Shown here: positions 6,684 through 60,412 of the stretch, piece by piece | Layout of the letters: the number at the start of each line of letters is the position of its first letter | Position numbering within the stretch: position 1 is the first letter of the stretch | Assembly: GCA_048384935.1 (NCBI GenBank) | Contig: DBEWII010000100.1 | Location: 858-64,857, forward strand | Source of the DNA: Collinsella aerofaciens | GTDB taxonomy: Bacteria > Actinomycetota > Coriobacteriia > Coriobacteriales > Coriobacteriaceae | DNA length: 64,000 bases | Direction of reading: 5' to 3' | Made by a program: the position numbers and the translations under genes | The notes under the pieces: model-generated | What the model was told of the DNA's origin: nothing | Databases searched by the model: none | The model's input: only the letters and a program-made list of their open reading frames with translations

Positions 6684-6957
6684 AGGCACCCACCCCTGAT
6701 AGGGGCAGGTCGCCGCGATACCTCTCACGGTTCATAGCGATGAGTCCTCTGTGTATACCCGCTTCGGCAGGCAGATCTGTTGAACGGATTTATTATACCG
6801 TGCAGCGCGGACGCAAAACGCCGCGGTGCGCCGCGGTTTCGGCAAACGATGGCGGTAATGCCCTCGAAATAATCGAGCGTTTCAGCCGCACGGACGCATA
6901 CGAGCGTCTAGCATATCCATACAAACGAGTTCGCGGATAAAGGGAGTCACGGGACAT

Positions 6958-34721: not shown

Positions 34722-35321
34722 ATGGACATCACCAGGGACATGAACGGAGCCAGAGCGCTCGTCGTGGGCGCAGGGCTCGCGCTCGCGCTCGCAATGGGCG
34801 CCGCCCCGACGCCAGCTATGGCAGCCGGGCGCGTTGGAACCACGAAAGTAATGGTCAGGACCGAGATCGACAACGTTGAGTTCAAAGTTCCGACGGTTAT
34901 TCCCTTCGTCGCCAAGGCCGACGGCACGCTTCAGGGCCCCTCAGAAGACGCGACCACCATCGACAATCATTCGGCCTACGGCATCCATGTCACCAACATG
35001 AAGATCGACGCCATGAACACCTGGACCATTGCTGCCGACGCCAAAGCCGGAACCGCACAGAACTCCATCGACTTTAAGGTCGGCCCCGACGGCGCACTCC
35101 AGAACGCCAGCGCCGCAACGCAGGGGACGGGCCTCGATCTTTCCAAGAATGCAGCCTTCGACATGGGCTACCAGGGCATTGCCGGCGGCAAGGACAAAAT
35201 TAAGCTCAAGACAAGCGGAAACGTCGCCCGCGTCACGCGCGACATCTTCCGCGTAACCGGCGAAGGCGATCAGGTTGCAACGATCACCTGGACGGTCGAG
35301 CCCGGTGCGCACACGGCATAA
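34722..35321 (+). CDS. secreted beta-rich surface protein with two WT(I/V) motifs (WxL-like)
   Basis: Signal peptide ending PAMA|AG. The motifs NTWTIAAD and ITWTVEPG are about 90 aa apart, the second near the C-terminus, which is reminiscent of WxL domains. Confidence 0.55.
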   Translation: MDITRDMNGARALVVGAGLALALAMGAAPTPAMAAGRVGTTKVMVRTEIDNVEFKVPTVIPFVAKADGTLQGPSEDATTIDNHSAYGIHVTNMKIDAMNTWTIAADAKAGTAQNSIDFKVGPDGALQNASAATQGTGLDLSKNAAFDMGYQGIAGGKDKIKLKTSGNVARVTRDIFRVTGEGDQVATITWTVEPGAHTA

Positions 35322-35586
35322 GGCTGTCGCCCTGGCCGCCGCCGTCAGCATCCTAGCGTTTGGGCCAGCCATGGCCTTTGCCCAGCAAGAACAGGCGCAG
35401 GCCGCCACGCAAGTGACGGTCGACCTCTCGGAGCTCGACCGCGGCGACCGCGAGGAACCGTTGGCGCAGACAGGCGACAGACGATGGCTCTTGGCAGCAG
35501 GCGCCGCAGCAGCAGGCGCGGGGACCGCCGGCCTCGGTCTGCACATCAAACGCAGCCAGAAACAAAACACGGACAGGCCGCACTAA
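35275..35586 (+). CDS. very small sortase-substrate protein (LAQTG sorting signal)
   Basis: Signal peptide (..AVALAAAVSILAFGPAMAFA|QQ), about 30 aa of mature sequence, LAQTG, a hydrophobic stretch (WLLAAGAAAAGAGTAGLGL), and a basic tail (HIKRSQKQ). The start is uncertain (TTG at 35275 or GTG at 35305) and overlaps the preceding gene. Confidence 0.6.
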   Translation: MQRSPGRSSPVRTRHKAVALAAAVSILAFGPAMAFAQQEQAQAATQVTVDLSELDRGDREEPLAQTGDRRWLLAAGAAAAGAGTAGLGLHIKRSQKQNTDRPH

Positions 35587-35604
35587 ATTAGCTAAGGAGA
35601 CCCC

Positions 35605-37035
35605 ATGGCATCAAAGAACCTTTTGCCCGTCGTCGCACTCTGCGGCGCGCTCGCAACCGGAACGCCCGTCGCCGCTTGGGCGACTCCCGTCATGGCAGAC
35701 TCCTTACCAGCAGCCCTAAGCTCCGCACCAAATCCGTCGAGTGCCATTGCGTGTAAGCGTTTTTCGATCGCACAAGCCGCAATCTCAACCTCGGGATGCC
35801 TTCGTCGTAATACGGACGGCTCGATAGTCGTGGATATCAATCGTTCGAACAAGGCAAACGGCTCCCAGGCGGGGTGCGCCGTCTGCATGTGGCGCTCGGT
35901 TGTGCTCGATGCGGATGGCGATCCATGCAATTTAGAGCTGCGCATCGACATCGCTTCGGTCGATGACTCGGCGAACGGAGCGAAGGTCGCCTTCGACGGT
36001 ACGTTTTTCGAGAAAGGAGGCGGTATATGTCTGGGCTGCGCCGCCGCGAATGCAGACGATGCGCAGCCCACCCTCTCATTCACGGCATCGTTGCGACTGA
36101 CCAAAGCCGGCACCGATGCCATCGCGGCGGGAGAAGCGTCCCTGCTGTTCTACGCCGTCAGCGCCAAAGACACAAACGCTCATTTCGAGAAGCCAGCCGG
36201 ATCACTCAGTCTTACACGAGGGATAGAGGCAGGCCCTATTGAAATCGATGCCCACGCGCAAAGCAGGCAACGCATTCTTGCCGACCCGGCGCTTCTCGAA
36301 ATGGAGTGGAACGGATCCGGAGCCATCGGAATTCTCCCCTCCGCGCTTGACGCCAAGACGCTCCCCTCAAACGACGAACCCATCAACGCAACCATACAAG
36401 AAGAGAGCGCGGATAAAGAAGCAGGTGCGGGCGACACGCCGTCGCCGACAAACAGCGCCCCAGCTTCTTTCGAAGCACCGAATGAGCCCGCTGCCGATCC
36501 AAACGATCCCGAGCTCGCGGACAGTCTGGGGCTTGCTGATCCTCAAGAGATCGATGAAGGTAACTGTTGCGTGCTTGCCGCACTCGACCACACAGAGGTC
36601 ATCGACGCTGCGAACATCGAAGTTGCCGCCGCCAATCAGCCCGTCCGCAAGTCGGCTATCATCGCATTTCCCGAATCCATCGAAGTCGTCTTTTTGCCAT
36701 CGGGCGAGGTCGTGGCCCCAACACTGCTCACCTTGTTGGGCGCCAAGAATACTCGAAACGAAATTAAAAAGGTCACGGTTGTCGACCCTGCAACCACCGC
36801 CAAGCTGCGTCTATACGCCGTTGCTCCAGACGGAGGCAAGACCTTGGAATTCGATGGTGACACACTCCTAGCCTGGCGACGTCTGGACATTATGCAAGAC
36901 GTCTCGTATCAGATCGAACTCGAAGGGTTTGATCGTGCCCGCGATGCCAATATCATCGCCGCGGCTATTGAATCCCCGCAGCGGCTTATGACACTGCGCT
37001 TTGAATACTATCCCTATGTCCCGACAACCACCTGA
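35605..37035 (+). CDS. large secreted protein, unknown function
   Basis: 476 aa with an N-terminal signal peptide (LLPVVALCGALATGTPVAAWA) and an acidic, Pro/Ala-rich linker in the middle. No recognisable catalytic motif. Confidence 0.6.
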   Translation: MASKNLLPVVALCGALATGTPVAAWATPVMADSLPAALSSAPNPSSAIACKRFSIAQAAISTSGCLRRNTDGSIVVDINRSNKANGSQAGCAVCMWRSVVLDADGDPCNLELRIDIASVDDSANGAKVAFDGTFFEKGGGICLGCAAANADDAQPTLSFTASLRLTKAGTDAIAAGEASLLFYAVSAKDTNAHFEKPAGSLSLTRGIEAGPIEIDAHAQSRQRILADPALLEMEWNGSGAIGILPSALDAKTLPSNDEPINATIQEESADKEAGAGDTPSPTNSAPASFEAPNEPAADPNDPELADSLGLADPQEIDEGNCCVLAALDHTEVIDAANIEVAAANQPVRKSAIIAFPESIEVVFLPSGEVVAPTLLTLLGAKNTRNEIKKVTVVDPATTAKLRLYAVAPDGGKTLEFDGDTLLAWRRLDIMQDVSYQIELEGFDRARDANIIAAAIESPQRLMTLRFEYYPYVPTTT

Positions 37036-37153
37036 GGCTTAAATGCTGCACATCATTCCTAACACCACTTATATAACGTATTAGATGAGTCGCGATGTGC
37101 CTCGCATTTCGTTCTGCTACGATTGCCACGTTGGCATCAATACAGGAGGGCTC

Positions 37154-37870
37154 ATGCCGGGCTTGGGAACAATCATCAACGTTGTGCTTTTAGTTGCGGG
37201 CGGTCTTTTGGGATTAGCGGGCGGCCGCTTCATCACACCGCGCATCCAAGACACACTCATGAAAGCATCGGGGCTGTGCGTCCTGTTTATCGGCCTTGGC
37301 GGCACCATGCAAAAGATGCTCCTTATCGATGGGAAGGCGCTAGCGACCACCGGCACCACCATGCTCATCGTCTCATTTGCGCTCGGTTCGCTCATCGGCG
37401 AGGCCGTCAACTTGGAAGCCGCCATCGAGAACCTTGGCGAATGGCTCAAGCGCAAGACCGGCAGTGAGGGCGATAACGAGTTCACCAACGCTTTTGTCTC
37501 GACTTCACTCACCGTGTGTATCGGCGCCATGGCAATTGTGGGATCGATCCAGGACGGCCTGCTCGGCGACTGGTCAACGCTTGCCCTCAAGGGCGCACTG
37601 GACTGCATCATCGTCTGCACCATGACGGCGTCGCTCGGACGCGGCTGCATCTTCTCGGCCCTGCCCGTAGCCGTGTTCCAGGGGACGATCACGTTGTTTG
37701 CCGGCGCGCTCTCCCCCATCATGACCACAGCAGCCCTCAACAGCCTTTCGCTCGTAGGCTCCATGCTCATCTTCTGCGTCGGCGTCAACCTCATCCGTCC
37801 TCAGACCTTCCGCACGGCCAATATGCTCCCCTCCGTCGTCATCGCCGTCATCTACGCCCTCCTGTTCTAA
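37154..37870 (+). CDS. DUF554-family membrane protein (YdfK-like)
   Basis: MPGLGTIINVVLLVAGGLLG start is typical of DUF554. Polytopic. ACAGGAGGG RBS before the ATG at 37154. Confidence 0.8.
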   Translation: MPGLGTIINVVLLVAGGLLGLAGGRFITPRIQDTLMKASGLCVLFIGLGGTMQKMLLIDGKALATTGTTMLIVSFALGSLIGEAVNLEAAIENLGEWLKRKTGSEGDNEFTNAFVSTSLTVCIGAMAIVGSIQDGLLGDWSTLALKGALDCIIVCTMTASLGRGCIFSALPVAVFQGTITLFAGALSPIMTTAALNSLSLVGSMLIFCVGVNLIRPQTFRTANMLPSVVIAVIYALLF

Positions 37871-37891
37871 ATCTATCAACGCAGCGGTATC

Positions 37892-37921
37892 TCGAACACC
37901 TGTTTGATGCTGTGCTATGAT
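37892..37921 (+). promoter_or_regulatory. candidate sigma-70-type promoter for the TerB/ATPase/helicase cassette
   Basis: TCGAAC (37892-37897), an 18-nt spacer, then TATGAT (37916-37921), 37 nt upstream of the GTG start. Weak -35 and good -10. Confidence 0.3.
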
Positions 37922-37957
37922 ATGAGGTCACCGTAGCTGCGTTCGAGAGGAGGAGCG

Positions 37958-39718
37958 GTGGCCGACCAGGACATCAAGATGCTCATCGAGCGCATTATGG
38001 CCGAGGCCCGGACCCATCAGTCTGCCCGCTTCTCACATGAAGTCTACGCAGACGAGCCGATTCTCAAAACCGGCCGACAGATGCAGAATTTCCTCCCCGA
38101 CCAGTACCGTAAAATGCGCGAGATATCGCGCTGGCAGGATGACCCCAAGGGCGGTGCGGGCCGCTGGCTTTCGGAAGCCGAGCTTTTTTACCGCCAGGGC
38201 CTGCTGATGGCCGACTTTGAGGACGACTGTCCCTACAACGGCACCTTTAAGTCGTACTTTCCCACCTACAACGCCATGAGCGACCGGCAGCTGCGCGGCT
38301 ACTTTACCTGGCGTGCCCAAGTGCGCCGCGGAACCGTCGAGGAAACGTCTACGTCCTTTGCCTTTCTGTATCTCTATGAGCTGATTTGCGGCATTGGCGT
38401 AGATGACCCGCTCGACGGTTTTAACAAGATCAAGGCCTTTTGGGATGTCTATCGCGCCTTCGAGCCCGGCATTGATCGGTTTGCACGCGTGTGGTTGCAG
38501 GATTACGCCGTATTCCATGGGCTCGACCCCAAGCTGCTCCGCGACTCTAAAACCGTCATGTTCGATAACGCCCTTATCGAGCTGCGGCGCGCGGCACGAG
38601 ACCTTGTACCGGCACCGGCACCGTCCGACCAGACCCCCAAACGTCGCAAAACCTCCGAGCCCACGCTCCCCCTTCCGCCCGATGAGGTGCGCGAGGAGCG
38701 ACTCATGGCCGCCATCAACGCCCTCTCCACGTACAACCTAAGTAACTCGCGGCTCGACCGCAGCCACCACCGCGATCTGCGCCACGTGGCATGCGCCGTG
38801 TATGTCCGCATGGCGCGCTACTATGACACGCACCGAAAGACCGGCATCGTAGCGAGCTTGTTTGGGGAGGAGACGGCCATGCCCTACACCATGTTTGCCT
38901 CGGCCGTATTCTTTGCGCCCGAGCGCCACGAGGACTGCGAATACCGCCTGGATCCCATCCACATCTACCGTTGCCAAAACGGCTTTTGGGAATGTATGCG
39001 TATCCATGGTAGTAGGCAAAAGAGCAGCAAGCTCGGTGAAATGATGCGCGCCTGCGACCAACGCCTGCGCCTGGCGCTGGACCCCGCCCATCCCCTTAAG
39101 GAAGAAAAGGTCCCCAAATATCTGGCCAAGATTACCGATGACGAGATCATGGCATGGCTTTCGTGGGACGCCGCACACCAGCCCGTCAAGATCGATATCG
39201 ATCTGAGTCAGCTGGGGCACATTCGGAGCGCCGCTGCGCAAACGCGCGAAGCACTTTTAATCGACGAAGAGCGCGAGGACGGCGCACCTGTGGAAGCCGA
39301 GGCAGCGGACTCAGGGCAACCGGAAGCCGAGCCCGTAGCCGACGCGATTGTCGAGGCGGTCGCGGCACCCATTCGGCAGGACGAGACCGACGAGCCAACC
39401 ATATCCACCGAACAGTTTGGTGTCGTGGCACCGCTTCTCGCGCCGACGCCCGCGTTCGCAGCTGTTGCGCCCGCTGACGCCACGAACGAACTCACGCCTG
39501 CCGCAGACGCCTATCTCCGCGCGCTGCTCGAGCACAACGCAGTACAGGCGGAATCGGCGGTAGTGCAATCGGGGCAGAGCGAGGACATGCTCGTCGACAG
39601 CATCAACGAGGCGCTCTTTGACCTGGTGGGCGACACCGTAATTGAATTTAGCGCGGCAGGGCCGCAGATTATCGAGGACTACGAAGCAGACGTGAGAGGA
39701 TACCTAGACCATGAGTGA
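37958..39718 (+). CDS. sngA: TerB-N / TerB-C domain protein (Shango SngA-like)
   Basis: 586 aa. TerB_N-like block (YFPTYNAMSDRQLRGYFTWRAQVRRG...FAFLYLYELICG) and TerB_C-like C-terminus (MLVDSINEALFDLVGDTVIEF...IIEDYEADVRGYL). GTG start after GAGAGGAGGAG. The stop overlaps the next start by 8 nt. Confidence 0.8.
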   Translation: MADQDIKMLIERIMAEARTHQSARFSHEVYADEPILKTGRQMQNFLPDQYRKMREISRWQDDPKGGAGRWLSEAELFYRQGLLMADFEDDCPYNGTFKSYFPTYNAMSDRQLRGYFTWRAQVRRGTVEETSTSFAFLYLYELICGIGVDDPLDGFNKIKAFWDVYRAFEPGIDRFARVWLQDYAVFHGLDPKLLRDSKTVMFDNALIELRRAARDLVPAPAPSDQTPKRRKTSEPTLPLPPDEVREERLMAAINALSTYNLSNSRLDRSHHRDLRHVACAVYVRMARYYDTHRKTGIVASLFGEETAMPYTMFASAVFFAPERHEDCEYRLDPIHIYRCQNGFWECMRIHGSRQKSSKLGEMMRACDQRLRLALDPAHPLKEEKVPKYLAKITDDEIMAWLSWDAAHQPVKIDIDLSQLGHIRSAAAQTREALLIDEEREDGAPVEAEAADSGQPEAEPVADAIVEAVAAPIRQDETDEPTISTEQFGVVAPLLAPTPAFAAVAPADATNELTPAADAYLRALLEHNAVQAESAVVQSGQSEDMLVDSINEALFDLVGDTVIEFSAAGPQIIEDYEADVRGYLDHE

Positions 39719-41015
39719 TACCGCATCCGCAGCGCCCCGTGTACCCAAACGCGTCGCCGCCGTTATCCTTAACTCGCTCAAGGGCGGCGTGGTCCCGCGC
39801 ATCGGCCTTCCCTATATCACCGTGGGTCGCGAGGTCGAGATTCGCGCCCTGCTCACCGATTTGAGTCTCATCGCCGATGGCGGCGCGAGCTTCCGCTTCT
39901 TAGTCGGTCGTTACGGCGCCGGCAAGAGCTTTTTGCTCCAGACCATCCGCACGCACGCCATGGGCGAGGGATTCGTCGTCGCTGATGCCGACCTGTCGCC
40001 CGAGCGCCGCCTGCAGGGCGGTCAGGGACAGGGCCTTGCCACCTACCGCGAGCTCATCCGCAATATATCGACCAAGACGCGCCCCGAGGGTGGTGCGCTC
40101 AACCTTATTTTGGATCGCTGGGTCGCCTCGTGTGCCGACGTCGACGAGTCGGTCGTCAATGCCCAACTGGCCCCGCTCGAGGAGATGGTCCACGGCTTCG
40201 ACTTCACCCGCATGCTCCGCCGCTATCGCATGGCCGTATCCGAGGGCGATGAAGAGGCTATGAGCCGCGTGACCAAATGGATTCGCGGCGAGTACCGCAC
40301 CAAGAGCGAGGCACGCGCTGAGCTGGGCTCCTCGACCATCATCAGCGATGACGACTGGTACGACTACGTTAAGCTCATTGCACGCTTTTTGGTCTGCAGC
40401 GGATACAAGGGCATGCTGGTGCTCATCGACGAACTCGTGAATCTGTACAAGATTCCCAACGCGATCACGCGCCAATACAACTACGAGAAGATCCTGACTA
40501 TGTACAACGACACGCTCCAGGGCAAGGCGCAGTACCTGGGCATGATCATGGGCGGCACGCCAACCTCCATCGAAGACCGCCGCCGCGGCGTGTTCTCCTA
40601 CGAAGCTCTGCGCAGCCGACTCTCTCAGGGTCGCTTTGCGCGAGATGATCTCAAAGACATGCTCGCGCCCATCATCCGCCTGCAGCCGCTCACCTACGAG
40701 GAGCTGCTGGTGCTCATCGAAAAGCTCATGCAGATCCATGCCGGCTACTTTGGCTGGACGCCCACGCTTACCGAGAACGACTTGGTGAACTTTCTCAAGA
40801 TTGAGTTTGGCCGCGTGGGAGCCGATACGCACCTGACGCCCCGTGAGGTCATTCGTGACTTTATCGAGCTGCTCGATATCCTGTGTCAGAACCCCGATGC
40901 AAATGTGGCCGAGTTGCTGCAAAGCGTCGGCGGCGACGCGCTGGCGCCGGCAGCCGCAACAGGCGACGCCGGCACCGCAGGCGGCGACCGCAACTTCGCC
41001 GAATTCACCATCTAA
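39711..41015 (+). CDS. sngB: DUF2791 / BrxD-type P-loop ATPase (Shango SngB-like)
   Basis: 434 aa. Walker A GRYGAGKS and Walker B MLVLIDEL. The N-terminal LKGGVVPRIGLPYITVGRE pattern is typical of the BrxD-type family. Confidence 0.8.
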   Translation: MSDTASAAPRVPKRVAAVILNSLKGGVVPRIGLPYITVGREVEIRALLTDLSLIADGGASFRFLVGRYGAGKSFLLQTIRTHAMGEGFVVADADLSPERRLQGGQGQGLATYRELIRNISTKTRPEGGALNLILDRWVASCADVDESVVNAQLAPLEEMVHGFDFTRMLRRYRMAVSEGDEEAMSRVTKWIRGEYRTKSEARAELGSSTIISDDDWYDYVKLIARFLVCSGYKGMLVLIDELVNLYKIPNAITRQYNYEKILTMYNDTLQGKAQYLGMIMGGTPTSIEDRRRGVFSYEALRSRLSQGRFARDDLKDMLAPIIRLQPLTYEELLVLIEKLMQIHAGYFGWTPTLTENDLVNFLKIEFGRVGADTHLTPREVIRDFIELLDILCQNPDANVAELLQSVGGDALAPAAATGDAGTAGGDRNFAEFTI

Positions 41016-41052
41016 CCTGCCAAAAAGGGACAGGTTTATTTTGGCAGGTTTT
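41016..41052 (+). terminator. terminator-like hairpin between the ATPase and helicase genes
   Basis: CCTGCCAAAA / TTTTGGCAGG 10-bp stem with a 13-nt loop, followed by TTTTAT. Begins right after the sngB-like stop codon. Confidence 0.45.
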
Positions 41053-41131
41053 ATCTGGGCAAACGTCGAGGCAGTAATGCAGCAAGCCACTGCCCACCGC
41101 ATTGAGAGATTCGTTTTTGAAAGGAGGCCCC

Positions 41132-43576
41132 GTGAACGCCTTTGACCGCTACGCCCCGTTTATCCAAGACTTCATCTACTCCCACGATTGGGAGAGTCTA
41201 CGCTCCATCCAGGTTGCAGCAGCTGATGCCATCTTTAACACTCAGGACAATGTGCTCCTGACGGCATCCACGGCTTCCGGCAAAACCGAGGCAGCCTTCT
41301 TTCCCATCCTGACCGAGTTTTGGGAGAACCCGCCCGCGAGCGTTGGCGCCCTCTACATCGGCCCCCTCAAGGCACTCATCAATGATCAGTTCGTCCGCCT
41401 CAACGACCTGTGCGAAGAGGCCGATATCCCCGTCTGGCACTGGCATGGCGATGTTTCGCAGTCGCACAAGGCTAAGCTCATCAAAAAACCGAGCGGTATC
41501 TTGCAGATTACGCCTGAGTCGCTCGAGGCGCTCCTGATCCATAAGCACATGGCAATCCCTCGTATGTTCTGCGACCTGCGCTATGTGGTTATCGACGAGG
41601 TTCATTCGCTCATGCGCGGCGACCGCGGCGGTCAGACGCTCTGCCTTATCGAGCGCCTCTCGCGCATGGCGGGCGTGCAGCCCCGCCGCATCGGCCTTTC
41701 TGCCACCATCGGCGACCCCGAGCGCACGGGCGCCTTTCTCTCACAGGGAACAGGACGCGATTGCATCATCCCCCGCTTTGAGGAACCGCGCCGCGTGTGG
41801 CGCATCTCCATGGAGCACTTCTACAACTCGGGTCCCCAGGCACAGCAGTGGGGATTCGAGAGCACGGGTCCACAAGAAGCCGAGATGCTTGCTTGCGAGC
41901 GTATTGAGCCGGCGGCACCCGCGGCACTGCCCGCCGGCGCCCAAGACATGCGTCACAGCGGACAGCTCACACAAGAGGAGCGCCGTCAACGTCGTGAGCG
42001 GGCACGGGACAAGGCTACCTCCAGGGATCGCCGCACTTCGTCGGCCCCCGAGGGCGAAGTCGACATCCCCCGAGCACCCGAACAGGCATTACTCAACCCC
42101 ACCGACACGGCGCCAGACAACGCCGACCCCGGCATGGGCTATATCTTTGAGCACACACGCGGCCGCAAGTGCCTGGTCTTTGCCAACTCGCGCGAGGAGG
42201 CAGAGGCCGTGTGCTCCATGCTGCGCAGCTACTGCGAGAGCCGGCACGAGCCCGACCGCTTTCTCATCCACCACGGCAATCTTTCAGCATCGCTGCGCGA
42301 GACGGCAGAAGAGCTCATGCGCGATGAGGAGCAGGCACAGACAACCGTCACCACATCTACACTGGAGCTCGGTATCGATATCGGCCGTCTGGAGCGTGCG
42401 TTTCAGATCGATGCACCGTTTACCGTCAGCTCCTTTTTGCAGCGAATGGGCCGCACGGGGCGCCGCGATCTTCCGCCCGAGATGTGGTTTGTCATGCGCG
42501 AGGAAGAACCCGAGCCGCGCACGATGATGCCCGAGACCATTCCGTGGAAGCTCCTGCAGGGCATCGCGCTCGTACAACTCTATCGCGAGGAAAAGTGGGT
42601 CGAGCCACCCGAACTCGATCGACTCCCCTACAGCCTGCTCTACCACCAGACTATGTCGACGCTTGCCAGCACCGGCGAACTCACGCCGGCAGAGCTTGCC
42701 CAGCGCGTGCTCACACTCAGCTATTTTCATCGCATCTCGGCCGATGACTATCGCGTGTTGCTGCGTCACCTCATTAAGATCGACCATATCCAAGTCACCG
42801 AGGGCGGCGGGCTCATCGTGGGCCTCGCGGGCGAGCGCATCATTAACAACTTTAAGTTCTACGCTGTGTTCCAGGAAAACGAGGAGTTCACCGTTCGCAG
42901 TGAGTCGGCCGAGTTGGGCACGATCGTCAATCCGCCACCGCCCGGTGAGCGCATCGCCATCGCCGGACACTGCTGGATTGTCGAGGAAGTGGACTGGAAG
43001 CGCCACACCGTCTTTGCCACGCAGGTCAAGGGCCGGGTGCCGGCCTACTTTGGCGACTGCCCCGGTGATATCAATACACACGTACTCGAGCGCATGCGCA
43101 AGGCGCTCAACGAGCACGCAGCATATCCGTACCTTATGGGTAACGCACGGGCCCGCCTTGCGCAGGCTCGTCATACCGCCGAGATTTCGGGCGCGGGAAC
43201 CAAGCCGCTCATTAACCTGGGCGGCGACACCTGGGTGCTCTTCCCCTGGTTGGGAAGCTACGCCTTTTTGGCGCTCGAGCGCATGCTCAAGATTAAATGT
43301 GCCGCGGAGCTGGGCCTTCGCGGACTCGACCCGTCACGCCCGTACTTTATGCAGTTTAAGATGAAGGCCGACGAGGAGACGTTCTTTGAAGTGCTCGCCG
43401 CCGAAGCCGAGAAAGACTTCGACCCCATCGACCTCGTCTATCCCGGCGAGGTGCCTTACTTTGACCGCTACGACGAGTTTGTTCCCGAAGAGCTCGTGCG
43501 CAAGGGCTTTGCCGAAGGCGTGCTCGACATCGAAGGCATGAAGCAGCGCGTTCTCGGCTGGCGCGACCACGCCTAA
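41132..43576 (+). CDS. sngC: Lhr / BrxHI-type DEAD/DEAH-box helicase (Shango SngC-like)
   Basis: SF2 motifs ASTASGKTEAAFFP, VVIDEVHS, TSTLELGIDIG and QRMGRTGRR, plus a C-terminal extension of about 350 aa as in Lhr-type helicases. I prefer the GTG at 41132, 4 nt after AAAGGAGG, over the TTG at 41102. Confidence 0.85.
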   Translation: MNAFDRYAPFIQDFIYSHDWESLRSIQVAAADAIFNTQDNVLLTASTASGKTEAAFFPILTEFWENPPASVGALYIGPLKALINDQFVRLNDLCEEADIPVWHWHGDVSQSHKAKLIKKPSGILQITPESLEALLIHKHMAIPRMFCDLRYVVIDEVHSLMRGDRGGQTLCLIERLSRMAGVQPRRIGLSATIGDPERTGAFLSQGTGRDCIIPRFEEPRRVWRISMEHFYNSGPQAQQWGFESTGPQEAEMLACERIEPAAPAALPAGAQDMRHSGQLTQEERRQRRERARDKATSRDRRTSSAPEGEVDIPRAPEQALLNPTDTAPDNADPGMGYIFEHTRGRKCLVFANSREEAEAVCSMLRSYCESRHEPDRFLIHHGNLSASLRETAEELMRDEEQAQTTVTTSTLELGIDIGRLERAFQIDAPFTVSSFLQRMGRTGRRDLPPEMWFVMREEEPEPRTMMPETIPWKLLQGIALVQLYREEKWVEPPELDRLPYSLLYHQTMSTLASTGELTPAELAQRVLTLSYFHRISADDYRVLLRHLIKIDHIQVTEGGGLIVGLAGERIINNFKFYAVFQENEEFTVRSESAELGTIVNPPPPGERIAIAGHCWIVEEVDWKRHTVFATQVKGRVPAYFGDCPGDINTHVLERMRKALNEHAAYPYLMGNARARLAQARHTAEISGAGTKPLINLGGDTWVLFPWLGSYAFLALERMLKIKCAAELGLRGLDPSRPYFMQFKMKADEETFFEVLAAEAEKDFDPIDLVYPGEVPYFDRYDEFVPEELVRKGFAEGVLDIEGMKQRVLGWRDHA

Positions 43577-43602
43577 GACCAGTCTTTTTGGGACGAGGAG
43601 AC

Positions 43603-44481
43603 TTATTTGTCGTGAAGGACGGTGCCGAGGAAGTCGGTGTCGAAGGGCACGGCTTCGGCAAAGGCGTAGTTGCCGTCGCTGGCGATGAGCAGGTAGTTTT
43701 CCTCGCCGCCGAACTCCGCATCGCCACATGGGACCACCCAGGCGTGGGCGAATACCTCGAGTGCCGTGGCAGCGCAATCGCGCAGGAACGTCACATCGCT
43801 CCCCTCGCTTGCGCTCACGATATTGGCCACGTAGATGCCGCCGGCATTCAGGCTGCCCCGCACTAGACGCAACGCCTCAACGGTCGCCAGCTCGCGTACG
43901 GGCTCGGCACCGCCAAAGCAATCGCTCACGACCACGTCGTAGCGACGATGACCCACACTCGTCACACCCAGATAAGAGCGAGCCTCAGCGGTTATCACCC
44001 GCAGGCGATCGCCCGCCGCGCGCTCCAGCTCGTCTAGGTAGAACCAGCGGCGCGCCAGGCGCGTAATCTCTCCGTCATACTCGATAACGTCCATGCGCAA
44101 GCCCTCGTGCGACATCAGCGCAAACTTGGGATAGGCAAACCCGCCGCCACCCAGCATGAGCATACGGTCGATGCCGTGACCATAAGCGTCGTGCATTGCA
44201 CCCTCGGCCTCAAACACGTCGTCAAACGCACGATAGTACGCAAAGACGGGCTCAGCCCAACGCTCGCCAACGTAACTCGCGCTTTGGTAGACGCCGCCTT
44301 GCACCAATACGCGGACTTCGTCGCCGCCCTCGTCGTGCACGCGCTTCACACGCGCCAACCCATTGCAGGTTCGCGCAACCTGCAGACAGGCAACACGAAC
44401 AGCGACAGCGGCCGCACCAAGCGCCGCGGCTCCCAGAGCAACGCCGGCAACGACGCCGGCAGAAACACTCGGCTTGTTCAT
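43603..44481 (-). CDS. spermidine-synthase-like class I SAM-fold protein with N-terminal TM helix
   Basis: A hydrophobic N-terminus, then MLMLGGGGFAYP (glycine-rich SAM/dcSAM loop) and VVVSD. Its ATG directly abuts the Elp3 stop (TAGATG). Confidence 0.65.
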   Translation of the reverse strand: MNKPSVSAGVVAGVALGAAALGAAAVAVRVACLQVARTCNGLARVKRVHDEGGDEVRVLVQGGVYQSASYVGERWAEPVFAYYRAFDDVFEAEGAMHDAYGHGIDRMLMLGGGGFAYPKFALMSHEGLRMDVIEYDGEITRLARRWFYLDELERAAGDRLRVITAEARSYLGVTSVGHRRYDVVVSDCFGGAEPVRELATVEALRLVRGSLNAGGIYVANIVSASEGSDVTFLRDCAATALEVFAHAWVVPCGDAEFGGEENYLLIASDGNYAFAEAVPFDTDFLGTVLHDK

Positions 44482-46487: not shown

Positions 46488-47387
46488 TCACTCCGGATCA
46501 AACGACATGTCGCCCGAACCGACCTCAAAACGATACGTAGCAGACTTATCGCCGTTATCGAATTCAAGATTCAAAATGGTCTCGCCGTCGTAGCCAAGCG
46601 GAAGGAAATCGCTCTCGAAGTCGCCGCTGCCCAAGGTGAGGCTCGCCTTAAAGCCCGTCGAGTTCGGAACCGTCATCTCCACATCGCCCGAGCCCACACT
46701 CACGTCCATCGACTTCGCGGGGGCCTGGTAGAGCTCGAACGTCACATCGCCCGAACCGACCTCGGCATTCAGGGTATCGGTCACGGTGCCCGTAAACTCA
46801 ACGTCTCCAGAGTCCAAAGTCAGGTTGAGGTCATGACACGCAATGCCCGCGACCGTCAGGTCACCCGATCCTACATTCGCTGTAATGCCCACCATGTTAT
46901 CGGCAACTTCGCGCGGCAGTTCGACGGTAACCGTGCGGTCAATGGCGCGCTCGTCATCGCAATCGAACTGGCGAATCTTGAGCGTAGAGCCCTTGATTTC
47001 GGCCAGGTTCTGGGTTGCCGCATCGAAGGCAACGGTCCCCGTTGCCACGCGACCGCTTTCAATTACGCGCACTGGCCCGCTGGAGACGTGTTTGACCTCG
47101 ACCGTGCCCGACGTCACGTCCAAGTCAAGCGATGTGAACGCGTCGGCATCAAAGGTTTCGCTCGAAAGCTGCTGAGGCTGAGCGGAATAGTTACCGCCAT
47201 CCAAAAGATCGTCCTCGTCAACCGCATCGTCCATACCAGAGAAGCCGGATACAACATCCTCGAGATCCCACGGGCCATCAAAATGAATCAAAGTCCGCGA
47301 AATGCCAAAGACAAGCCCGATGATGAGCACAAACGCTCCGATGCCAACGCCCAAGCGTACCTTGGATTCATGCGAAAGCTTCATCAT
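46488..47387 (-). CDS. DUF4097-family beta-repeat protein with N-terminal TM anchor
   Basis: One TM helix, then a repeated beta-strand motif (VGSGDLTV, LDSGDVEF, VGSGDVTF, VGSGDVEM, LGSGDFES, VGSGDMSF). 4-nt overlap with the upstream regulator gene. Confidence 0.75.
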   Translation of the reverse strand: MMKLSHESKVRLGVGIGAFVLIIGLVFGISRTLIHFDGPWDLEDVVSGFSGMDDAVDEDDLLDGGNYSAQPQQLSSETFDADAFTSLDLDVTSGTVEVKHVSSGPVRVIESGRVATGTVAFDAATQNLAEIKGSTLKIRQFDCDDERAIDRTVTVELPREVADNMVGITANVGSGDLTVAGIACHDLNLTLDSGDVEFTGTVTDTLNAEVGSGDVTFELYQAPAKSMDVSVGSGDVEMTVPNSTGFKASLTLGSGDFESDFLPLGYDGETILNLEFDNGDKSATYRFEVGSGDMSFDPE

Positions 47388-48106
47388 TCATCACTCTCTT
47401 TGGCAATCGGCTCAGCGGTAGTCGCGGTAGCCACGTCAGCATCAGATTCCGCAGAGGTATCCTTCCCCTGGGCCTTGACCGCCACCGGCGCCGGACCAAC
47501 CTGGATATCCCCGCGCGCCCAATCGCCATCGAGCGCACGCGCCACCCAGTGATAGATGGGAATCGTAAAGAAGACCAGCGCAGCAAAGGGGCCGGCACCA
47601 AACAGGAACATCAGTAAAAAGAACAGCAGCCAGCACACGGCCCAATACGGGAATGACTGGAACGGACCCTTCACCGGAGTCGGACCAGCCGCACCGGTAC
47701 CCGTCACCTGAGCCGTCGCCGCATTGGCAGCCTGCGCACTCCAGCTTGCCGCCTGCGCCGCCTTGGCTGCCGCGTCACTTGCCTGCGTTGCCGCCTCGGT
47801 GGCGCGCGCCGCCGCCTCATGGGTGCGGGCGCGCTCTGCCGCCTCGGCCTCGCGCTGACGAGCGCGGTCCTCGTTCTCAAACTCGATATCGTCCTCAATC
47901 TCATCGCTCGGATTGAGCAGCTCGTCCAGACTCACACCATAGAGCTTGGCGAGCGAGATCAGGTTCTCGGTATCGGGCGAGCTCTCCGCACGCTCCCATT
48001 TACTAACCGCCTGGCGCGACAGCCCCAGCTTTCGCGCCAGCCCTTCTTGGCTAAAGCCCTTGCTGCGGCGAAGGTCGGCGAGCCGCTGCGCAGTTTCTAC
48101 ATTCAT
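47384..48106 (-). CDS. membrane-tethered XRE-family HTH transcriptional regulator
   Basis: The HTH region LRRSKGFSQEGLARKLGLSRQAVSKWERAESSPDTENLISLAKLYGVSLDELL, then an Ala/Glu-rich linker, then two C-terminal TM helices. Start at MNVETAQ (ATG 48104-48106 rc, GGAGGAAC upstream). Confidence 0.8.
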   Translation of the reverse strand: MNVETAQRLADLRRSKGFSQEGLARKLGLSRQAVSKWERAESSPDTENLISLAKLYGVSLDELLNPSDEIEDDIEFENEDRARQREAEAAERARTHEAAARATEAATQASDAAAKAAQAASWSAQAANAATAQVTGTGAAGPTPVKGPFQSFPYWAVCWLLFFLLMFLFGAGPFAALVFFTIPIYHWVARALDGDWARGDIQVGPAPVAVKAQGKDTSAESDADVATATTAEPIAKESDE

Positions 48107-48373
48107 GGTTCCTCCTATGTGATGCCAGCCGTGCCGCCGGACCGTTTTTGTTCTTAAGGCGCCTTGCACAGTTAAAAATCTATCCGCCACCGCCAAAAGC
48201 ATGCCACCTATTCTAGTGAGATTTTTGACAACTGGCGGTTGCGGGCACATATGAGCTGCGGAAATGTGTCCAAACAAAGCAATGAGCCGCAGCTCGGTTG
48301 TCCCCGTTGCGGCGTTAACGGTAGTATGGTCATACTGTTTATTCCGCACCGCCAACGGAGGGAGTTCCGCGCC

Positions 48374-53272: not shown

Positions 53273-55030
53273 TTACTCGGCATCCTCGACCTCATACGAA
53301 TCCGCCTCGGCTGGCTCATCGTTTGTCTCTGGCGCAGCCCCGCGTGCCTCGTCAAAGGCGGCCTTCATGGTCTTGTTGCCCCATGTGAGCTTGCGAATGG
53401 TAAGATCGTCGGCCTTCTTGTTGGCAAGGCGCAGATTGTTCTCGGAGGACAGCAACGCCTCCTTGGTTTTCTGCAGATGGCTAATCGTCTTGTCGATCTC
53501 ATCGATTGCCGTTTGGAACTTGCGGCTCGCGATCTCGTAGTTGCGGCCGAAGTCGTTCTTGAACTTTTCCATCTTGGCTTCGAAGTTCGTGACGTCGATA
53601 TTCTGCTGTTTGTACTCCGCCAGCTCCTGTTTATAGCGCAGCGAACCCATGGCGGCGTTGCGAAGAAGTGTAATCATGGGAATGAAAAACTGTGGGCGAA
53701 TCACGTACATCTTCTCGTAGCGATAGCTCACGTCCACGATTCCCGCGTTATAGAGCTCGCTCTCAGGCTCGAGTAGCGTGCAGAGCACCGCGTACTCACA
53801 GCCTTTCTGGCGACGATCGTGATCGAGCTTCTTAAAGAAGTCCTCGTTTTTGTGCTTGGTCGCGGTCTCGTCGTTCTCATTTTTCATCTCGAACATAATC
53901 GAAATGACCTCGTTGCCGCTCGCATCGCACTCGCGGAAGATAAAGTCGCCCTTGGTACCCTCGGACGCATCGTTGTCTTTCTCGAAGTACGCGTTGGGAA
54001 ACGCCGTCATGCGTAGGCGGTTAAACTCGGTCTCGCAGTGCTGCTCGAGCGACTCGCCCACCATCTTGGTGGACAGGCGCACCTTCATGTCCTTAAGGCG
54101 CTCAATCTCTTCATCCTTGTAGCGAATCAGGTCATCACTCGCGCGCTTGGCCTGCGCAAGCTCGAGCTCGTGTGCCGCCTTGGCCTGTTCCTCGCGAGAA
54201 TCGCGCACCGCCAGCTCGCTCGTCAGCTTGGCACGTGCCTCATCGCGCTCTCGCTCCGCCGCGGCGACCGCCTCCGACAGGTTCATTTTTGCCATCAGTT
54301 CCTGCTCGCGCAACTGGGCACGCAGACCCTCGGCCTCTTGCTCAGATTGTGCCTTTGCGGCGGAAAACTTCTCCTGTACCGTCGCGCGATAGTCAGTAAG
54401 CGCGCGCTCGGCCTCGCTGCGAGCGGCATCGAGCTCGCGCTGCGACTCAGCCGCAGCGGCGGCAAGCGCCATCTCCTGGGCCTTGTCCGCCGCGGCAAGC
54501 CTGGCCTGCAGCTCGGCAATCTGAGCATCACGTGCAGCTAAATCGTTTTGAGCAGCGTTGCGCGCCGCCGACTCGACGAGCTTAGCTTCGTCATCTTTGC
54601 GCTCCAGCTGCGCACGCAAATTGTCGATTTCTCGCTGAAGCTCGGCGTTTTCCTTTTGAGCGTCGGCACGGGCCTCAACCGCCGCGCGCTGGCTTGCACT
54701 CTCGCGCTCTGCGGCAGCGCCCTCGAGCTTGGCGCGCAGCTCGGCAAGCTCAGCATCGCGCTTGGCAACCTCTTGTGCCAGCTGTTGAGCTGCAGCGTTC
54801 TTCTGCTCGATAAGCTGAGCGTTGCGCTGAGACTCTGCCTTTTGCAAGGCAGCCGTCAAACGCGAGCGCTCAAGCTCCAGCGCCTGCTCGCCCTCGCGCT
54901 GGACTGCCTTCACACGCTCATCCAGGTCGCGCGAAAACTCGGAATCGCGCACTTGCTTGACAATATCCGCATAGCCAGACGCATCGACCTTAAAGACTTC
55001 GCCACAATGCGGGCACTTGATCTCATTCAT
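53273..55030 (-). CDS. DUF2130-family protein (zinc ribbon + long coiled coil + C-terminal nuclease-like domain)
   Basis: [32 protein letters not shown] is the characteristic DUF2130 N-terminus. About 250 aa of Ala/Glu/Gln/Arg coiled coil follow, then a conserved C-terminal globular domain. Confidence 0.8.
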
Positions 55031-60289: not shown

Positions 60290-60412
60290 CTAAGTGAGTA
60301 GACTTTTTGGAACTTGCCGAGCACGCCATCCATATTGCTTTATAAAGCCGCAGGTAAATGACTTGTTGCAAAACGGCTTGGTCGCCAAAGTGCCAAAAGT
60401 CTACTCACTTAG
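60290..60412. repeat. 123-bp palindromic MITE-like element, copy 2
   Basis: Same termini as copy 1 (CTAAGTGAGTAGACTTTTT ... AAAAGTCTACTCACTTAG) and the internal box AGCCGCAGGTAAA. Its right end supplies the last codons and the TAG stop of the 60401-61534 ORF. Confidence 0.75.

What the first reader, a model, noticed from the sequence alone, without database searches (positions are those of the whole stretch)
37958..43576. Stand-alone TerB-N/TerB-C + BrxD-type ATPase + Lhr/BrxHI-type helicase cassette (Shango-like defence module)
Seen in the sequence:
- Three co-oriented genes.
- Gene 1 (586 aa) has a TerB_N-like block (YFTWRAQVRRG...FAFLYLYELICG) and a TerB_C-like tail (DSINEALFDLVGDTVIEF).
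- Its stop overlaps the start of gene 2 by 8 nt (ATGAGTGA), which implies translational coupling.
- Gene 2 (434 aa) is a P-loop ATPase (GRYGAGKS, LVLIDEL) of the DUF2791/BrxD type.
- Gene 3 (about 815 aa) is an SF2 helicase (GKT, DEVH, QRMGRTGRR) with a long Lhr-like C-terminal extension.

Established knowledge:
- BrxD-type ATPases and Lhr-like BrxHI helicases travel together in BREX types 2 and 6.
- A TerB-like protein plus an ATPase plus a helicase is the architecture named Shango (Millman et al. 2022; Johnson et al.). It has shown anti-phage activity in E. coli and Pseudomonas, but its mechanism is unknown.

Inference:
- No pglX or pglZ is present, so this is not BREX.
- It appears to be a Shango-type module in a high-GC Gram-positive anaerobe.
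- It sits beside a surface-protein island, which is consistent with an accessory defence locus.
- How a TerB-type module would couple to ATPase/helicase action on invading DNA is still an open question.
Basis: partly seen in the sequence, partly recalled or inferred. Interest (0 to 1): 0.85.

Follow-up and report, generated by a model that had tools for sequence, protein, structure and literature searches.

The report
Core-genome Shango defence operon in Collinsella
The three genes are a complete, intact copy of the already described Shango anti-phage system (sngA-sngB-sngC) in the gut bacterium Collinsella; it is ordinary as a system, and the one notable point is that it is a fixed, vertically inherited part of the chromosome rather than a mobile accessory island.

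Summary
Three co-oriented genes lie at 37958-39718, 39711-41015 and 41132-43576, with every quoted motif and the 8-nt ATGAGTGA overlap.

Profile searches identify a canonical Shango system. PADLOC gives SngA 5e-77, SngB 6e-169 and SngC 4e-276. Each beats the BREX BrxD and BrxHI models by a wide margin. Pfam gives TerB_N + TerB_C, BrxC_BrxD, and DEAD + Helicase_C. No PglX or PglZ was found among the ORFs scanned, so it is not BREX.

The window is Collinsella (Coriobacteriaceae). The "accessory locus" inference fails:
- The operon sits in the same place in 75 of 76 judgeable Collinsella species-representative genomes.
- It is under strong purifying selection (dN/dS 0.04-0.11).
- It has no GC anomaly, tRNA, integrase or neighbouring defence gene.
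- It keeps its flanks (spermidine-synthase-like gene, Elp3, TrmB, DUF3516 helicase, PurL) as far as Coriobacterium glomerans. It is also present in Enorma, Olsenella and Thermophilibacter.

A 2025 preprint already notes Shango in the core genomes of gut Actinobacteriota.

The mechanism is still unpublished. My best inference is that the ORC/Cdc6-type ATPase SngB loads or activates the Lhr-like helicase SngC on foreign DNA, under control of the fast-evolving SngA. This is a known system of low novelty.

The parts
37958..39718 (+). sngA, 586 aa. Domain layout: TerB_N (aa 65-197); a confidently modelled alpha/beta middle domain (aa 243-441); a disordered acidic Ala/Pro/Glu linker (aa 441-510) that is the only variable part; and an acidic TerB_C tail (aa 514-585) of three helices, a beta-hairpin and a helix.
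   Evidence: Pfam TerB_N 6e-32 and TerB_C 5e-17. PADLOC SngA 5e-77, covering 29-581 of the protein and 53-525 of the 528-position profile. AF2 mean pLDDT 81.3 with these domain limits. Variability map. No TM-like segment: maximum KD19 is 1.53.
39711..41015 (+). sngB, 434 aa. An ORC/Cdc6-type AAA+ ATPase of the BrxC/BrxD family. Walker A GRYGAGKS is at nt 39906-39929 and Walker B LVLIDE at 40416-40433. It has a conserved C-terminal FAEFTI peptide. Its start overlaps the sngA stop by 8 nt.
   Evidence: Pfam BrxC_BrxD 6e-149. PADLOC SngB 6e-169 against BrxD 9e-39. Walker residues are invariant across six genera, including plasmid copies. Overlap shown.
41132..43576 (+). sngC, 814 aa. An SF2 helicase related to Lhr, MrfA and BrxHI. 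Motif I is at nt 41264-41293, DEVH at 41594-41605 and motif VI QRMGRTGRR at 42440-42466. A lineage-specific low-complexity insert (aa ~240-330, nt 41849-42121) lies between the two RecA domains. The C-terminal region is about 350 aa.
   Evidence: Pfam DEAD 1.7e-26 and Helicase_C 5.7e-18. PADLOC SngC 4e-276 over 2-805. The best solved relatives are M. smegmatis Lhr 5v9x and B. subtilis MrfA/YprA 6znp. The insert is absent from the Clostridium and Klebsiella copies.
41014..41056 (+). Hairpin in the sngB-sngC spacer, with a 12-bp stem (ACCUGCCAAAA...UUUUGGCAGGU) followed by UUUUAU. It is a possible partial terminator or attenuator that would set the SngC level relative to SngA and SngB.
   Evidence: Sequence. 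Fold. Conserved in 70 Collinsella loci. The evidence is weak: the fold of the whole spacer is no more stable than shuffles (z = -0.63), and there is no covariation to test.
37871..37957 (+). 87-nt spacer upstream of sngA containing the ribosome-binding site GAGAGGAGGAG. No promoter was identified. The operon may be read through from the co-oriented DUF554 gene.
   Evidence: Sequence. The consensus scan found no sigma-70-like site in this spacer.
43581..43603 (.). Stem-loop in the 26-nt gap between the convergent sngC and spermidine-synthase-like genes. It is probably a shared terminator.
   Evidence: Terminator-like hit. Sequence.

Best explanation
**What it is.** This is a complete, intact Shango system (sngA-sngB-sngC) in the chromosome of a Collinsella species. 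Here it is an ancestral, vertically inherited core operon of the Coriobacteriales, not a mobile island.

**How it most likely works (inferred, not shown).**
- SngA and SngB are made in fixed proportion through translational coupling and form a complex with SngC.
- SngB is a stand-alone ORC/Cdc6-type AAA+ ATPase. It uses ATP to load or switch on SngC.
- SngC is an Lhr-like 3'-to-5' SF2 translocase. It acts on phage DNA ends or replication intermediates.
- SngC translocation then strips or unwinds these intermediates and blocks phage DNA replication.
- The system encodes no recognisable nuclease, so any degradation would be left to host nucleases.
- SngA is soluble and is the fastest-evolving subunit. 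It carries an acidic, tethered TerB_C tail. I take it to be the sensor or specificity subunit that holds the motor off until infection.

**Confidence by step.** The 0.8 below is for the first step alone; the stricter claims are rated separately. That it is a Shango-family system: about 0.95. That its role in Collinsella is defence against phages or other foreign DNA: about 0.7. The loader, helicase and sensor division of labour: about 0.35.
For: **Identity**
- PADLOC SngA, SngB and SngC score 258.6, 560.7 and 916.4 bits, each the top hit over nearly full length.
- Pfam gives TerB_N + TerB_C, BrxC_BrxD, and DEAD + Helicase_C.
- The gene order A-B-C matches the Clostridium estertheticum plasmid copy.

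**Integrity**
- Across six genera the Walker A and B residues are invariant; helicase motifs I, II and III, and motif VI apart from one Thr/Ser change, are invariant across the four sequences.
- The ORFs are intact in 61-69 Collinsella species representatives.
- Median dN/dS is 0.11 (SngA), 0.039 (SngB) and 0.036 (SngC).

**Defence role of the family**
- Millman 2022 and Johnson 2023 showed anti-phage activity in E. coli and P. aeruginosa.
- Homologues sit on about 700 plasmids, mostly conjugative.

**Division of labour**
- BrxD is classified as a stand-alone ORC/Cdc6 AAA+ ATPase that forms a tight dyad with BrxHI and is proposed to be its loader or activator (NAR 2026, gkag035).
- The SngC core is closest to Lhr and MrfA.
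- sngA and sngB overlap by 8 nt.
- SngA is 26% identical between the Collinsella and Clostridium plasmid copies, against 60% for SngB and 67% for SngC.
- Within Collinsella, SngA variation is confined to its linker.
- No nuclease family was hit in any of the three proteins.
- The confident SngA model has no significant PDB neighbour.

**Core status**.
Against: - No biochemical or structural work on Shango exists in the papers or PDB copy searched. The mechanism therefore rests on domain analogy.
- The direction of SngC translocation is taken from Lhr and was not tested.
- The SngC model was poor (pLDDT 48), so its C-terminal domains are unverified here.
- Fixed housekeeping synteny across two families is unusual for a defence system. 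It would also fit a genome-maintenance role.
- This Collinsella copy is only about 41% (SngB) and about 29-40% (SngC) identical to the one enterobacterial plasmid copy compared here (Klebsiella pCAV1392-131). I did not compare it with the E. coli or PA14 systems that were tested.
- No phage phenotype is known for any Gram-positive Shango.
Confidence: 0.8

Rival explanations
1. In the Coriobacteriales the module is a domesticated housekeeping system. An Lhr-type helicase, its AAA+ partner and a TerB-N/C regulator would serve DNA repair, replication-fork or R-loop processing, or a stress response, rather than immunity.
For: - The operon is present at the same site in 75 of 76 judgeable Collinsella species representatives.
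- The PurL ... sngABC - spermidine-synthase-like - Elp3 - TrmB - DUF3516 helicase order is retained in Coriobacterium glomerans. The system is also present in Enorma, Olsenella and Thermophilibacter.
- Against Enorma and An307, SngB and SngC (70-77% identity) are more conserved than the adjacent ETF, FAD-oxidase and Elp3 genes (56-66%).
- dN/dS is about 0.04.
- There is no GC shift, tRNA, integrase or other defence gene nearby.
- The closest solved helicases, Lhr and MrfA, are repair enzymes.
Against: - The proteins match the models built from defence-island Shango systems at very high scores.
- Close relatives (SngB 60%, SngC 67% identical) sit on a Clostridium plasmid next to a relaxase and IS elements. 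About 700 other plasmids carry the module. That pattern is typical of defence cargo.
- SngA evolves much faster than its partners, as expected for an arms-race interface.
- Core placement of a defence system has precedent and has been reported for exactly this case.
Confidence: 0.15
2. It acts by abortive infection or membrane surveillance. On this view the TerB-type SngA senses membrane or ion disturbance caused by phage entry. The ATPase and helicase then attack host DNA or drain ATP so that the infected cell dies.
For: Millman 2022 suggested that TerB-containing systems might survey the membrane. Other TerB systems (Bunzi, Dionysus) have membrane-associated components.
Against: - SngA has no hydrophobic segment (maximum KD19 1.53) and no hit to the canonical TerB domain PF05099. 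The model is a soluble multi-domain protein.
- Johnson 2023 saw culture protection across a broad range of phage doses, which is not the usual abortive-infection pattern.
- No toxin, pore or nuclease domain is present.
Confidence: 0.1
3. It is a remnant of a type 2 or type 6 BREX system that has lost PglX, PglZ and BrxC and kept only the BrxD-BrxHI pair.
For: SngB hits BrxD (9e-39) and SngC hits BrxHI (1.5e-122) as second-best models. BrxD and BrxHI are a tightly linked dyad in BREX type 2.
Against: - The dedicated Sng models score about 4.3 times higher for SngB and about 2.2 times higher for SngC.
- The BrxD equivalog cut-off is failed (132.8 against 350).
- A TerB_N/TerB_C gene is translationally coupled to sngB.
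- The same three-gene unit, without BREX genes, recurs across the Coriobacteriales and on a Clostridium plasmid.
- No PglZ or PglX was found among the 33 larger ORFs of the window that were scanned.
Confidence: 0.02

Closest known systems
Shango (SngABC), described by Millman et al. 2022 in E. coli and Johnson et al. 2023 in P. aeruginosa PA14 cDHS1
   Same: - It has the same three proteins: a TerB-type protein, a BrxD-like ATPase and an Lhr/BrxHI-like helicase.
- The gene order A-B-C is the same as in the Clostridium plasmid copy.
- Matches to the PADLOC SngA, SngB and SngC models are full-length or nearly so.
- The catalytic motifs are intact.
   Different: - The host is an actinobacterial gut anaerobe.
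- The location is a fixed core-genome site flanked by housekeeping genes. The described systems sit in a variable hotspot, genomic island or plasmid.
- SngC has a roughly 90-aa low-complexity insert between its RecA domains. SngA has a long acidic disordered linker.
- Sequence identity to the Klebsiella plasmid copy compared here is only about 41% (SngB) and about 29-40% (SngC).
- This copy has no experimental phenotype.
BrxD-BrxHI dyad of BREX types 2 and 6
   Same: Both pair a homologous ORC/Cdc6-type AAA+ ATPase with a homologous SF2 helicase as adjacent genes. The loader-plus-helicase logic is probably the same.
   Different: - There is no PglX, PglZ, BrxC or PglW here, so there is no methylation-based self-marking.
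- A TerB_N/TerB_C protein takes their place.
- SngB fails the BrxD equivalog cut-off.
Lhr (M. smegmatis 5v9x/7lhl) and MrfA/YprA (B. subtilis 6znp) repair helicases
   Same: These are the closest solved structures to the SngC motor core, with E 1.9e-34 and 5.9e-32 by profile. The only confident fold matches of the SngC model are also to these.
   Different: - SngC is far below the Lhr-type equivalog cut-offs (194 against 850 bits).
- Its C-terminal 350 aa has no sequence match in the PDB.
- It depends on two partner genes that Lhr and MrfA lack.
TerB-containing systems: the terZABCDE tellurite-resistance cluster, Bunzi and Dionysus
   Same: They share the TerB-associated domains TerB_N and TerB_C, which Anantharaman et al. 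2012 linked to stress or phage responses (as cited).
   Different: - There is no canonical TerB domain (PF05099) hit. The Pfam scans of the ORFs covered found no other ter gene.
- There is no membrane component or pore-forming effector.

Membership tests
Shango (SngABC) | SngA: a protein with TerB-type domains (TerB_N + TerB_C) that matches the SngA profile | tested here: met
   Pfam TerB_N 6.1e-32 and TerB_C 5.2e-17. PADLOC SngA 5.4e-77, 258.6 bits, as the only hit, covering profile positions 53-525 of 528.
Shango (SngABC) | SngB: a P-loop ATPase of the BrxC/BrxD fold that matches SngB better than BrxD | tested here: met
   PADLOC SngB 560.7 bits against BrxD 131.8 bits. Pfam BrxC_BrxD 6e-149. 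Walker A and B are intact and invariant.
Shango (SngABC) | SngC: an SF2 DEAD/DEAH helicase that matches SngC better than BrxHI | tested here: met
   PADLOC SngC 916.4 bits against BrxHI 408.2 bits. Motifs I, Ia, II (DEVH), III and VI are present.
Shango (SngABC) | All three genes adjacent and co-oriented as one operon | tested here: met
   Genes lie at 37958-39718, 39711-41015 and 41132-43576, all on the + strand, with an 8-nt overlap and a 116-nt spacer. The order is the same on the Clostridium plasmid and in five other Coriobacteriales.
Shango (SngABC) | Confers resistance to phages when expressed | not testable with these tools
   This has been shown only for the E. coli and P. aeruginosa systems. 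No data exist for the Collinsella copy.
BREX type 2 / type 6 | Core genes PglZ (alkaline-phosphatase fold), PglX methyltransferase and BrxC in the same locus | tested here: not met
   Pfam scans of 33 of the window's larger ORFs found no PglZ, no PglX-type N6-methyltransferase and no BrxC-sized ATPase. PADLOC found no BREX component in ten neighbouring genes.
BREX type 2 / type 6 | ATPase reaches the BrxD equivalog score | tested here: not met
   NF033438 BREX_BrxD scored 132.8 bits against a curated cut-off of 350.
Lhr / ligase-associated DEXH helicases | Reaches the curated equivalog score, with the Lhr-core domain set (RecA1, RecA2, winged helix, domain 4) | tested here: not met
   TIGR04121 scored 194 bits against 850, and PRK13767 165 against 849. 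Only the RecA domains align to 5v9x. The C-terminal 358 aa has no PDB sequence hit. The model was too poor to judge the C-terminal fold.
Ter (tellurite-resistance) stress system | Canonical TerB domain (PF05099) and neighbouring terZ/A/C/D/E genes | tested here: not met
   SngA has no PF05099 hit at E <= 0.01. No Ter-family genes were found among the ORFs scanned in the window.
Accessory defence island / mobile element cargo | Variable presence among close relatives, atypical composition, and flanking tRNA, integrase or other defence systems | tested here: not met
   The operon is present at the same site in 75 of 76 judgeable Collinsella species representatives. GC is 0.60-0.62, like the rest of the window. 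The window has no tRNA. There are no defence hits in neighbours beyond generic HTH and helicase-domain matches. Synteny extends to Coriobacterium.

The most novel reading that the evidence does not exclude
In the Coriobacteriales, Shango is an ancient, chromosomally fixed module. It is retained with the same housekeeping neighbours across at least two families, and its motor subunits are more conserved than adjacent metabolic genes. Its primary role there would be endogenous genome maintenance or stress signalling, not phage restriction. Alternatively it is a rare, truly core innate immune system. On either view the plasmid-borne defence Shango systems of Clostridia and Enterobacteria would be offshoots that swapped in different SngA sensors. 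The persistent linkage to a spermidine-synthase-like gene, seen in two different arrangements, could then be functional.
Probability: 0.15. Interest if true: 0.55.

Novelty: already known. Interest (0 to 1): 0.25.

Why it matters
As a system it adds little. Shango is catalogued, standard tools (PADLOC, and presumably DefenseFinder) would call this locus, and its core-genome status in gut Actinobacteriota has been remarked on.

Its modest value is as a study object:
- It is an intact copy under strong constraint, present in almost every Collinsella aerofaciens-group lineage.
- Collinsella is an abundant and cultivable human gut commensal.
- This gives a natural setting for asking what Shango does when it is not mobile.
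- The pattern of conserved SngB and SngC with a fast-diverging SngA and a hypervariable tether points to which subunit to mutate first.
- It is also relevant to anyone planning phage work on Collinsella.

Tried and rejected
- **BREX remnant.** Rejected for three reasons: the Sng models score about 2.2 to 4.3 times higher than the Brx models, the BrxD equivalog cut-off is failed, and no PglX, PglZ or BrxC was found in the ORFs scanned.
- **Accessory island or mobile element.** Rejected after comparing 80 Collinsella species-representative loci and five more distant Coriobacteriales. The window also has no tRNA, no Rfam family and no GC shift.
- **Phage-borne origin.** No SngB homologue was found in 50,697 phage records.
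- **Solved structures.** Neither single-sequence nor profile searches of the PDB found anything for SngA or SngB. The SngC C-terminus found nothing either.
- **SngA structure.** The model is confident (pLDDT 81), but Foldseek gave no hit at E <= 1e-3. There were only weak matches of about 73 columns to LysR/ModE winged-helix domains. I attribute these to the TerB_C tail from its secondary-structure pattern. The tool does not report query coordinates, so this is unproven.
- **SngC structure.** The available alignment was shallow, with all relatives 66-70% identical to the query. The model failed (pLDDT 48), so only the RecA1 matches are meaningful.
- **First protein search with SngA.** It was swamped by Collinsella orthologues at 96% identity or more. 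Diversity came only from the 50%-cluster library and a profile built from distant members.
- **Spacer hairpin as a regulatory RNA.** The stem is conserved. However, the fold of the region is no better than shuffles, and the loci are too similar for covariation.
- **Hidden nuclease.** I looked in all three proteins. No nuclease family was hit in Pfam, NCBIfam or PADLOC, and inspection of the family-invariant SngA residues suggests none.

Full report
**1. The observation**

- The ORF listing and translation give gene 1 at 37958-39718 (586 aa, GTG start behind GAGAGGAGGAG) and gene 2 at 39711-41015 (434 aa). Gene 3 is an ORF at 41102-43576.
- The functional start of gene 3 is almost certainly GTG 41132. 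It lies behind GAAAGGAGG, and homologues from Clostridium, Klebsiella and Thermophilibacter begin at that residue. That gives 814 aa.
- The stop of gene 1 and the start of gene 2 overlap as ATGAGTGA.
- Genes 2 and 3 are separated by 116 nt.

**2. What the proteins are**

*Family assignments*
- Gene 1: Pfam gives TerB_N (6e-32) plus TerB_C (5e-17).
- Gene 2: Pfam gives BrxC_BrxD/PF10923 (6e-149).
- Gene 3: Pfam gives DEAD plus Helicase_C.
- PADLOC-DB assigns them to SngA (5e-77, 258.6 bits), SngB (6e-169, 560.7 bits) and SngC (4e-276, 916.4 bits). All three matches are near full length.
- The BREX relatives are distant seconds: BrxD 131.8 bits and BrxHI 408.2 bits.
- NCBIfam's BrxD equivalog is failed, at 132.8 bits against a cut-off of 350.
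- The Pfam scans, which covered 33 of the window's larger ORFs, found no PglZ, PglX or BrxC.

*Catalytic motifs and solved relatives*
- Across six genera, including plasmid copies, Walker A (G66..GK72S) and Walker B (D240-E241) of SngB are invariant.
- In the four-sequence SngC alignment, helicase motifs I, II and III are invariant, and motif VI is invariant apart from one Thr/Ser change.
- The nearest solved structures to the SngC motor are M. smegmatis Lhr and B. subtilis MrfA/YprA.
- Nothing in the PDB matches SngA, SngB or the SngC C-terminal 358 residues by sequence or profile.

**3. Structure of SngA**

I built an alignment of 75 diverse homologues, reached through the 50%-cluster library and a profile search. 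With it AlphaFold2 gave a confident model (mean pLDDT 81.3). Its parts are:
- a helical TerB_N domain (aa 48-215);
- a short disordered stretch;
- an alpha/beta middle domain (aa 243-441) carrying many family-invariant residues (G303, W344, R423 and others);
- a disordered acidic Ala/Pro-rich tether of about 70 residues (aa 441-510);
- a small tail (aa 514-585) of three helices, a beta-hairpin and a helix.

Other properties:
- The tail has 17 acidic and 2 basic residues.
- Foldseek found no PDB neighbour at E <= 1e-3. It gave only weak matches of about 73 columns to LysR/ModE winged-helix domains. I tentatively attribute these to the tail.
- There is no hydrophobic segment and no nuclease signature.
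- The SngC model failed (pLDDT 48) because only a shallow alignment was available. I therefore rely on the published BrxHI analysis for its C-terminal domains.

**4. Genomic context and evolution**

*Host and conservation within Collinsella*
- A scan of one genome per GTDB species with the flanking Elp3 gene shows that the window is Collinsella, C. aerofaciens group.
- In the 80 best loci, Shango sits at the same place in 75 of the 76 that extend far enough to judge. That place is between DUF554 and the spermidine-synthase-like gene.
- 61 of those loci carry all three genes complete.
- The exception, L058, is a low-coverage MAG contig with a 9.2-kb deletion.
- Three loci carry a 2-kb transporter gene inserted beside sngC.
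- The ORFs are intact. Variation is confined to the SngA tether and a low-complexity insert in SngC.
- Median dN/dS is 0.11, 0.039 and 0.036 for SngA, SngB and SngC.

*No sign of a mobile element or defence island*
- GC content is unremarkable.
- The window has no tRNA.
- No neighbouring gene matches a defence family beyond generic domains.

*Beyond the C. aerofaciens group*
- Enorma phocaeensis and Collinsella sp. An307 keep the left flank (AzlCD, ETF, FAD-oxidase).
- An307 and Coriobacterium glomerans PW2 keep the right flank (spermidine-synthase-like gene, Elp3, TrmB, and in Coriobacterium also the DUF3516 helicase). PurL lies on the left in Coriobacterium, as in the window.
- Olsenella profusa and Thermophilibacter provencensis (Atopobiaceae) have the operon in a different neighbourhood. 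It is still near the spermidine-synthase-like gene.
- Against Enorma and An307, SngB and SngC are 70-77% identical. The flanking ETF, FAD-oxidase and Elp3 genes are 56-66% identical.
- This is the signature of vertical descent under strong constraint.
- The HRGM2 preprint already states that Shango is an exception among defence systems in lying in the core genomes of gut Actinobacteriota.

*The family is clearly mobile elsewhere*
- About 700 plasmids, mostly conjugative Klebsiella and Salmonella plasmids, carry SngB homologues.
- A Clostridium estertheticum plasmid carries sngA-sngB-sngC beside a relaxase and IS elements.
- That plasmid's SngB and SngC are 60% and 67% identical to the Collinsella proteins, but its SngA is only 26% identical.
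- SngC is 82-87% identical across several Clostridia genera.
- The motor pair is therefore conserved and exchanged, while SngA diverges or is swapped.

**5. How it most likely works**

*Shown*
- The family protects E. coli and P. aeruginosa against several phages, modestly on plates.

*Not shown anywhere I could find*
- No mechanism is reported. Reviews and primary papers to 2026 still call it unknown.

*Inferred*
- SngB belongs with BrxD. That protein is a stand-alone ORC/Cdc6-type AAA+ ATPase forming a tight dyad with the BrxHI helicase, and it has been proposed as the helicase's loader or activator.
- SngC is an Lhr/MrfA-like SF2 motor. By analogy it would be a 3'-to-5' translocase.
- SngA is translationally coupled to SngB, soluble, fast-evolving, and ends in an acidic domain on a long flexible tether.
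- I therefore propose that SngA is the sensor and regulator and that SngB loads or activates SngC on phage DNA ends or replication intermediates. Helicase action would then block replication directly, because the system has no recognisable nuclease.
- I put about 0.35 on this division of labour.

*Rivals*
- A domesticated genome-maintenance role in the Coriobacteriales (0.15).
- Abortive infection or membrane surveillance (0.1). The soluble SngA and the published liquid-culture behaviour count against it.
- A BREX remnant (0.02).

**6. Comparison, novelty and verdict**

Every testable defining feature of Shango is met. The defining features of BREX, the Lhr equivalogs, the Ter cluster and a mobile defence island were tested and not met (see the membership table).

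The locus is an instance of an already described system that standard tools would annotate. The differences from the characterised copies are:
- an actinobacterial host;
- fixed core-genome placement, which has already been noted in print;
- a SngC low-complexity insert;
- a long SngA tether.

Interest is 0.25. The identification by eye was good, but the system is known. This instance does not by itself make the open mechanistic question more tractable. What it does offer is a conserved native copy in a cultivable gut commensal, and a pointer to SngA as the specificity subunit.

Noticed in passing
window 41014-41056: A terminator-like hairpin (12-bp stem followed by UUUUAU) lies in the 116-nt sngB-sngC spacer and is conserved in 70 Collinsella loci. 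It could attenuate sngC expression. The spacer length varies widely in other genera: 6 nt in Coriobacterium and 461 nt in Collinsella sp. An307.
   Followed up: partly
window 43603-44481 (-); L085 6323-7189; L086 17567-18586; L087 15384-16277; L088 8033-8899: A spermidine-synthase-like gene (NF037959, 68 bits) stays next to Shango in Collinsella, Coriobacterium, Olsenella and Thermophilibacter, in two different arrangements. It is convergent downstream in Coriobacteriaceae. It is divergent upstream, with YaaD between, in Atopobiaceae. I could not tell whether this is residual synteny or a functional link.
   Followed up: partly
L082 5358-10533 (Clostridium estertheticum plasmid pCF002-344) against window 37958-43576: Evolution is modular. 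SngB and SngC are 60% and 67% identical between the plasmid and Collinsella, but SngA is only 26% identical. SngC is 82-87% identical across Clostridium, Blautia, Eubacterium and Ructibacterium, which suggests recent horizontal spread among Clostridia.
   Followed up: partly
window 41849-42121 (SngC aa ~240-330): A low-complexity, Arg/Glu/Pro-rich insert of about 90 aa lies between the two RecA domains of SngC. It is present in Collinsella and, in shorter form, in Thermophilibacter. It is absent from the Clostridium and Klebsiella copies. It is the only variable part of SngC within Collinsella.
   Followed up: partly
window 34722-37035 (+): Two genes (199 aa and 476 aa) have signal-peptide-like N-termini and no Pfam, NCBIfam or PADLOC hit. 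The 476-aa protein ranges from 57% to 100% identity among Collinsella species, so it is a variable surface or secreted protein. These genes are absent from Collinsella sp. An307, Enorma and Coriobacterium at this site.
   Followed up: partly
window 3396-6728 (-): A 1109-aa protein fuses a RecJ-type exonuclease (DHH, DHHA1, RecJ_OB) to a DEAD/Helicase_C SF2 helicase. It lies next to a RelA/SpoT gene.
   Followed up: no
L058 7925-7936 (uncultured Collinsella UMGS1339); L065, L067, L069: One low-coverage MAG contig has a clean 9.2-kb deletion equivalent to window 35050-44238. It removes the 476-aa gene, DUF554 and sngABC. It could be a real loss or an assembly chimera. Three other species carry a 2-kb MFS-like transporter gene inserted between the spermidine-synthase-like gene and sngC.
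   Followed up: partly
window 46488-48355 (-): The DUF4097 ('toastrack') gene and the adjacent HTH_3 gene overlap by 4 nt. The DUF4097 protein is unusually variable among Collinsella species (71-99% identity, dN/dS 0.20) compared with its neighbours.
   Followed up: no
L085 11247-12164 (-) (Thermophilibacter provencensis): A called 305-aa gene with no Pfam hit lies on the opposite strand between sngB and sngC, splitting the operon in that genus. It could be a spurious call in high-GC DNA.
   Followed up: no
window 53273-55030 (-) and 60401-61534 (-): There is a 584-aa DUF2130 protein, and a 376-aa protein with a sub-threshold REase_MTES_1575 hit (27 bits against a cut-off of 38). Neither matched a PADLOC model where tested.
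   Followed up: no
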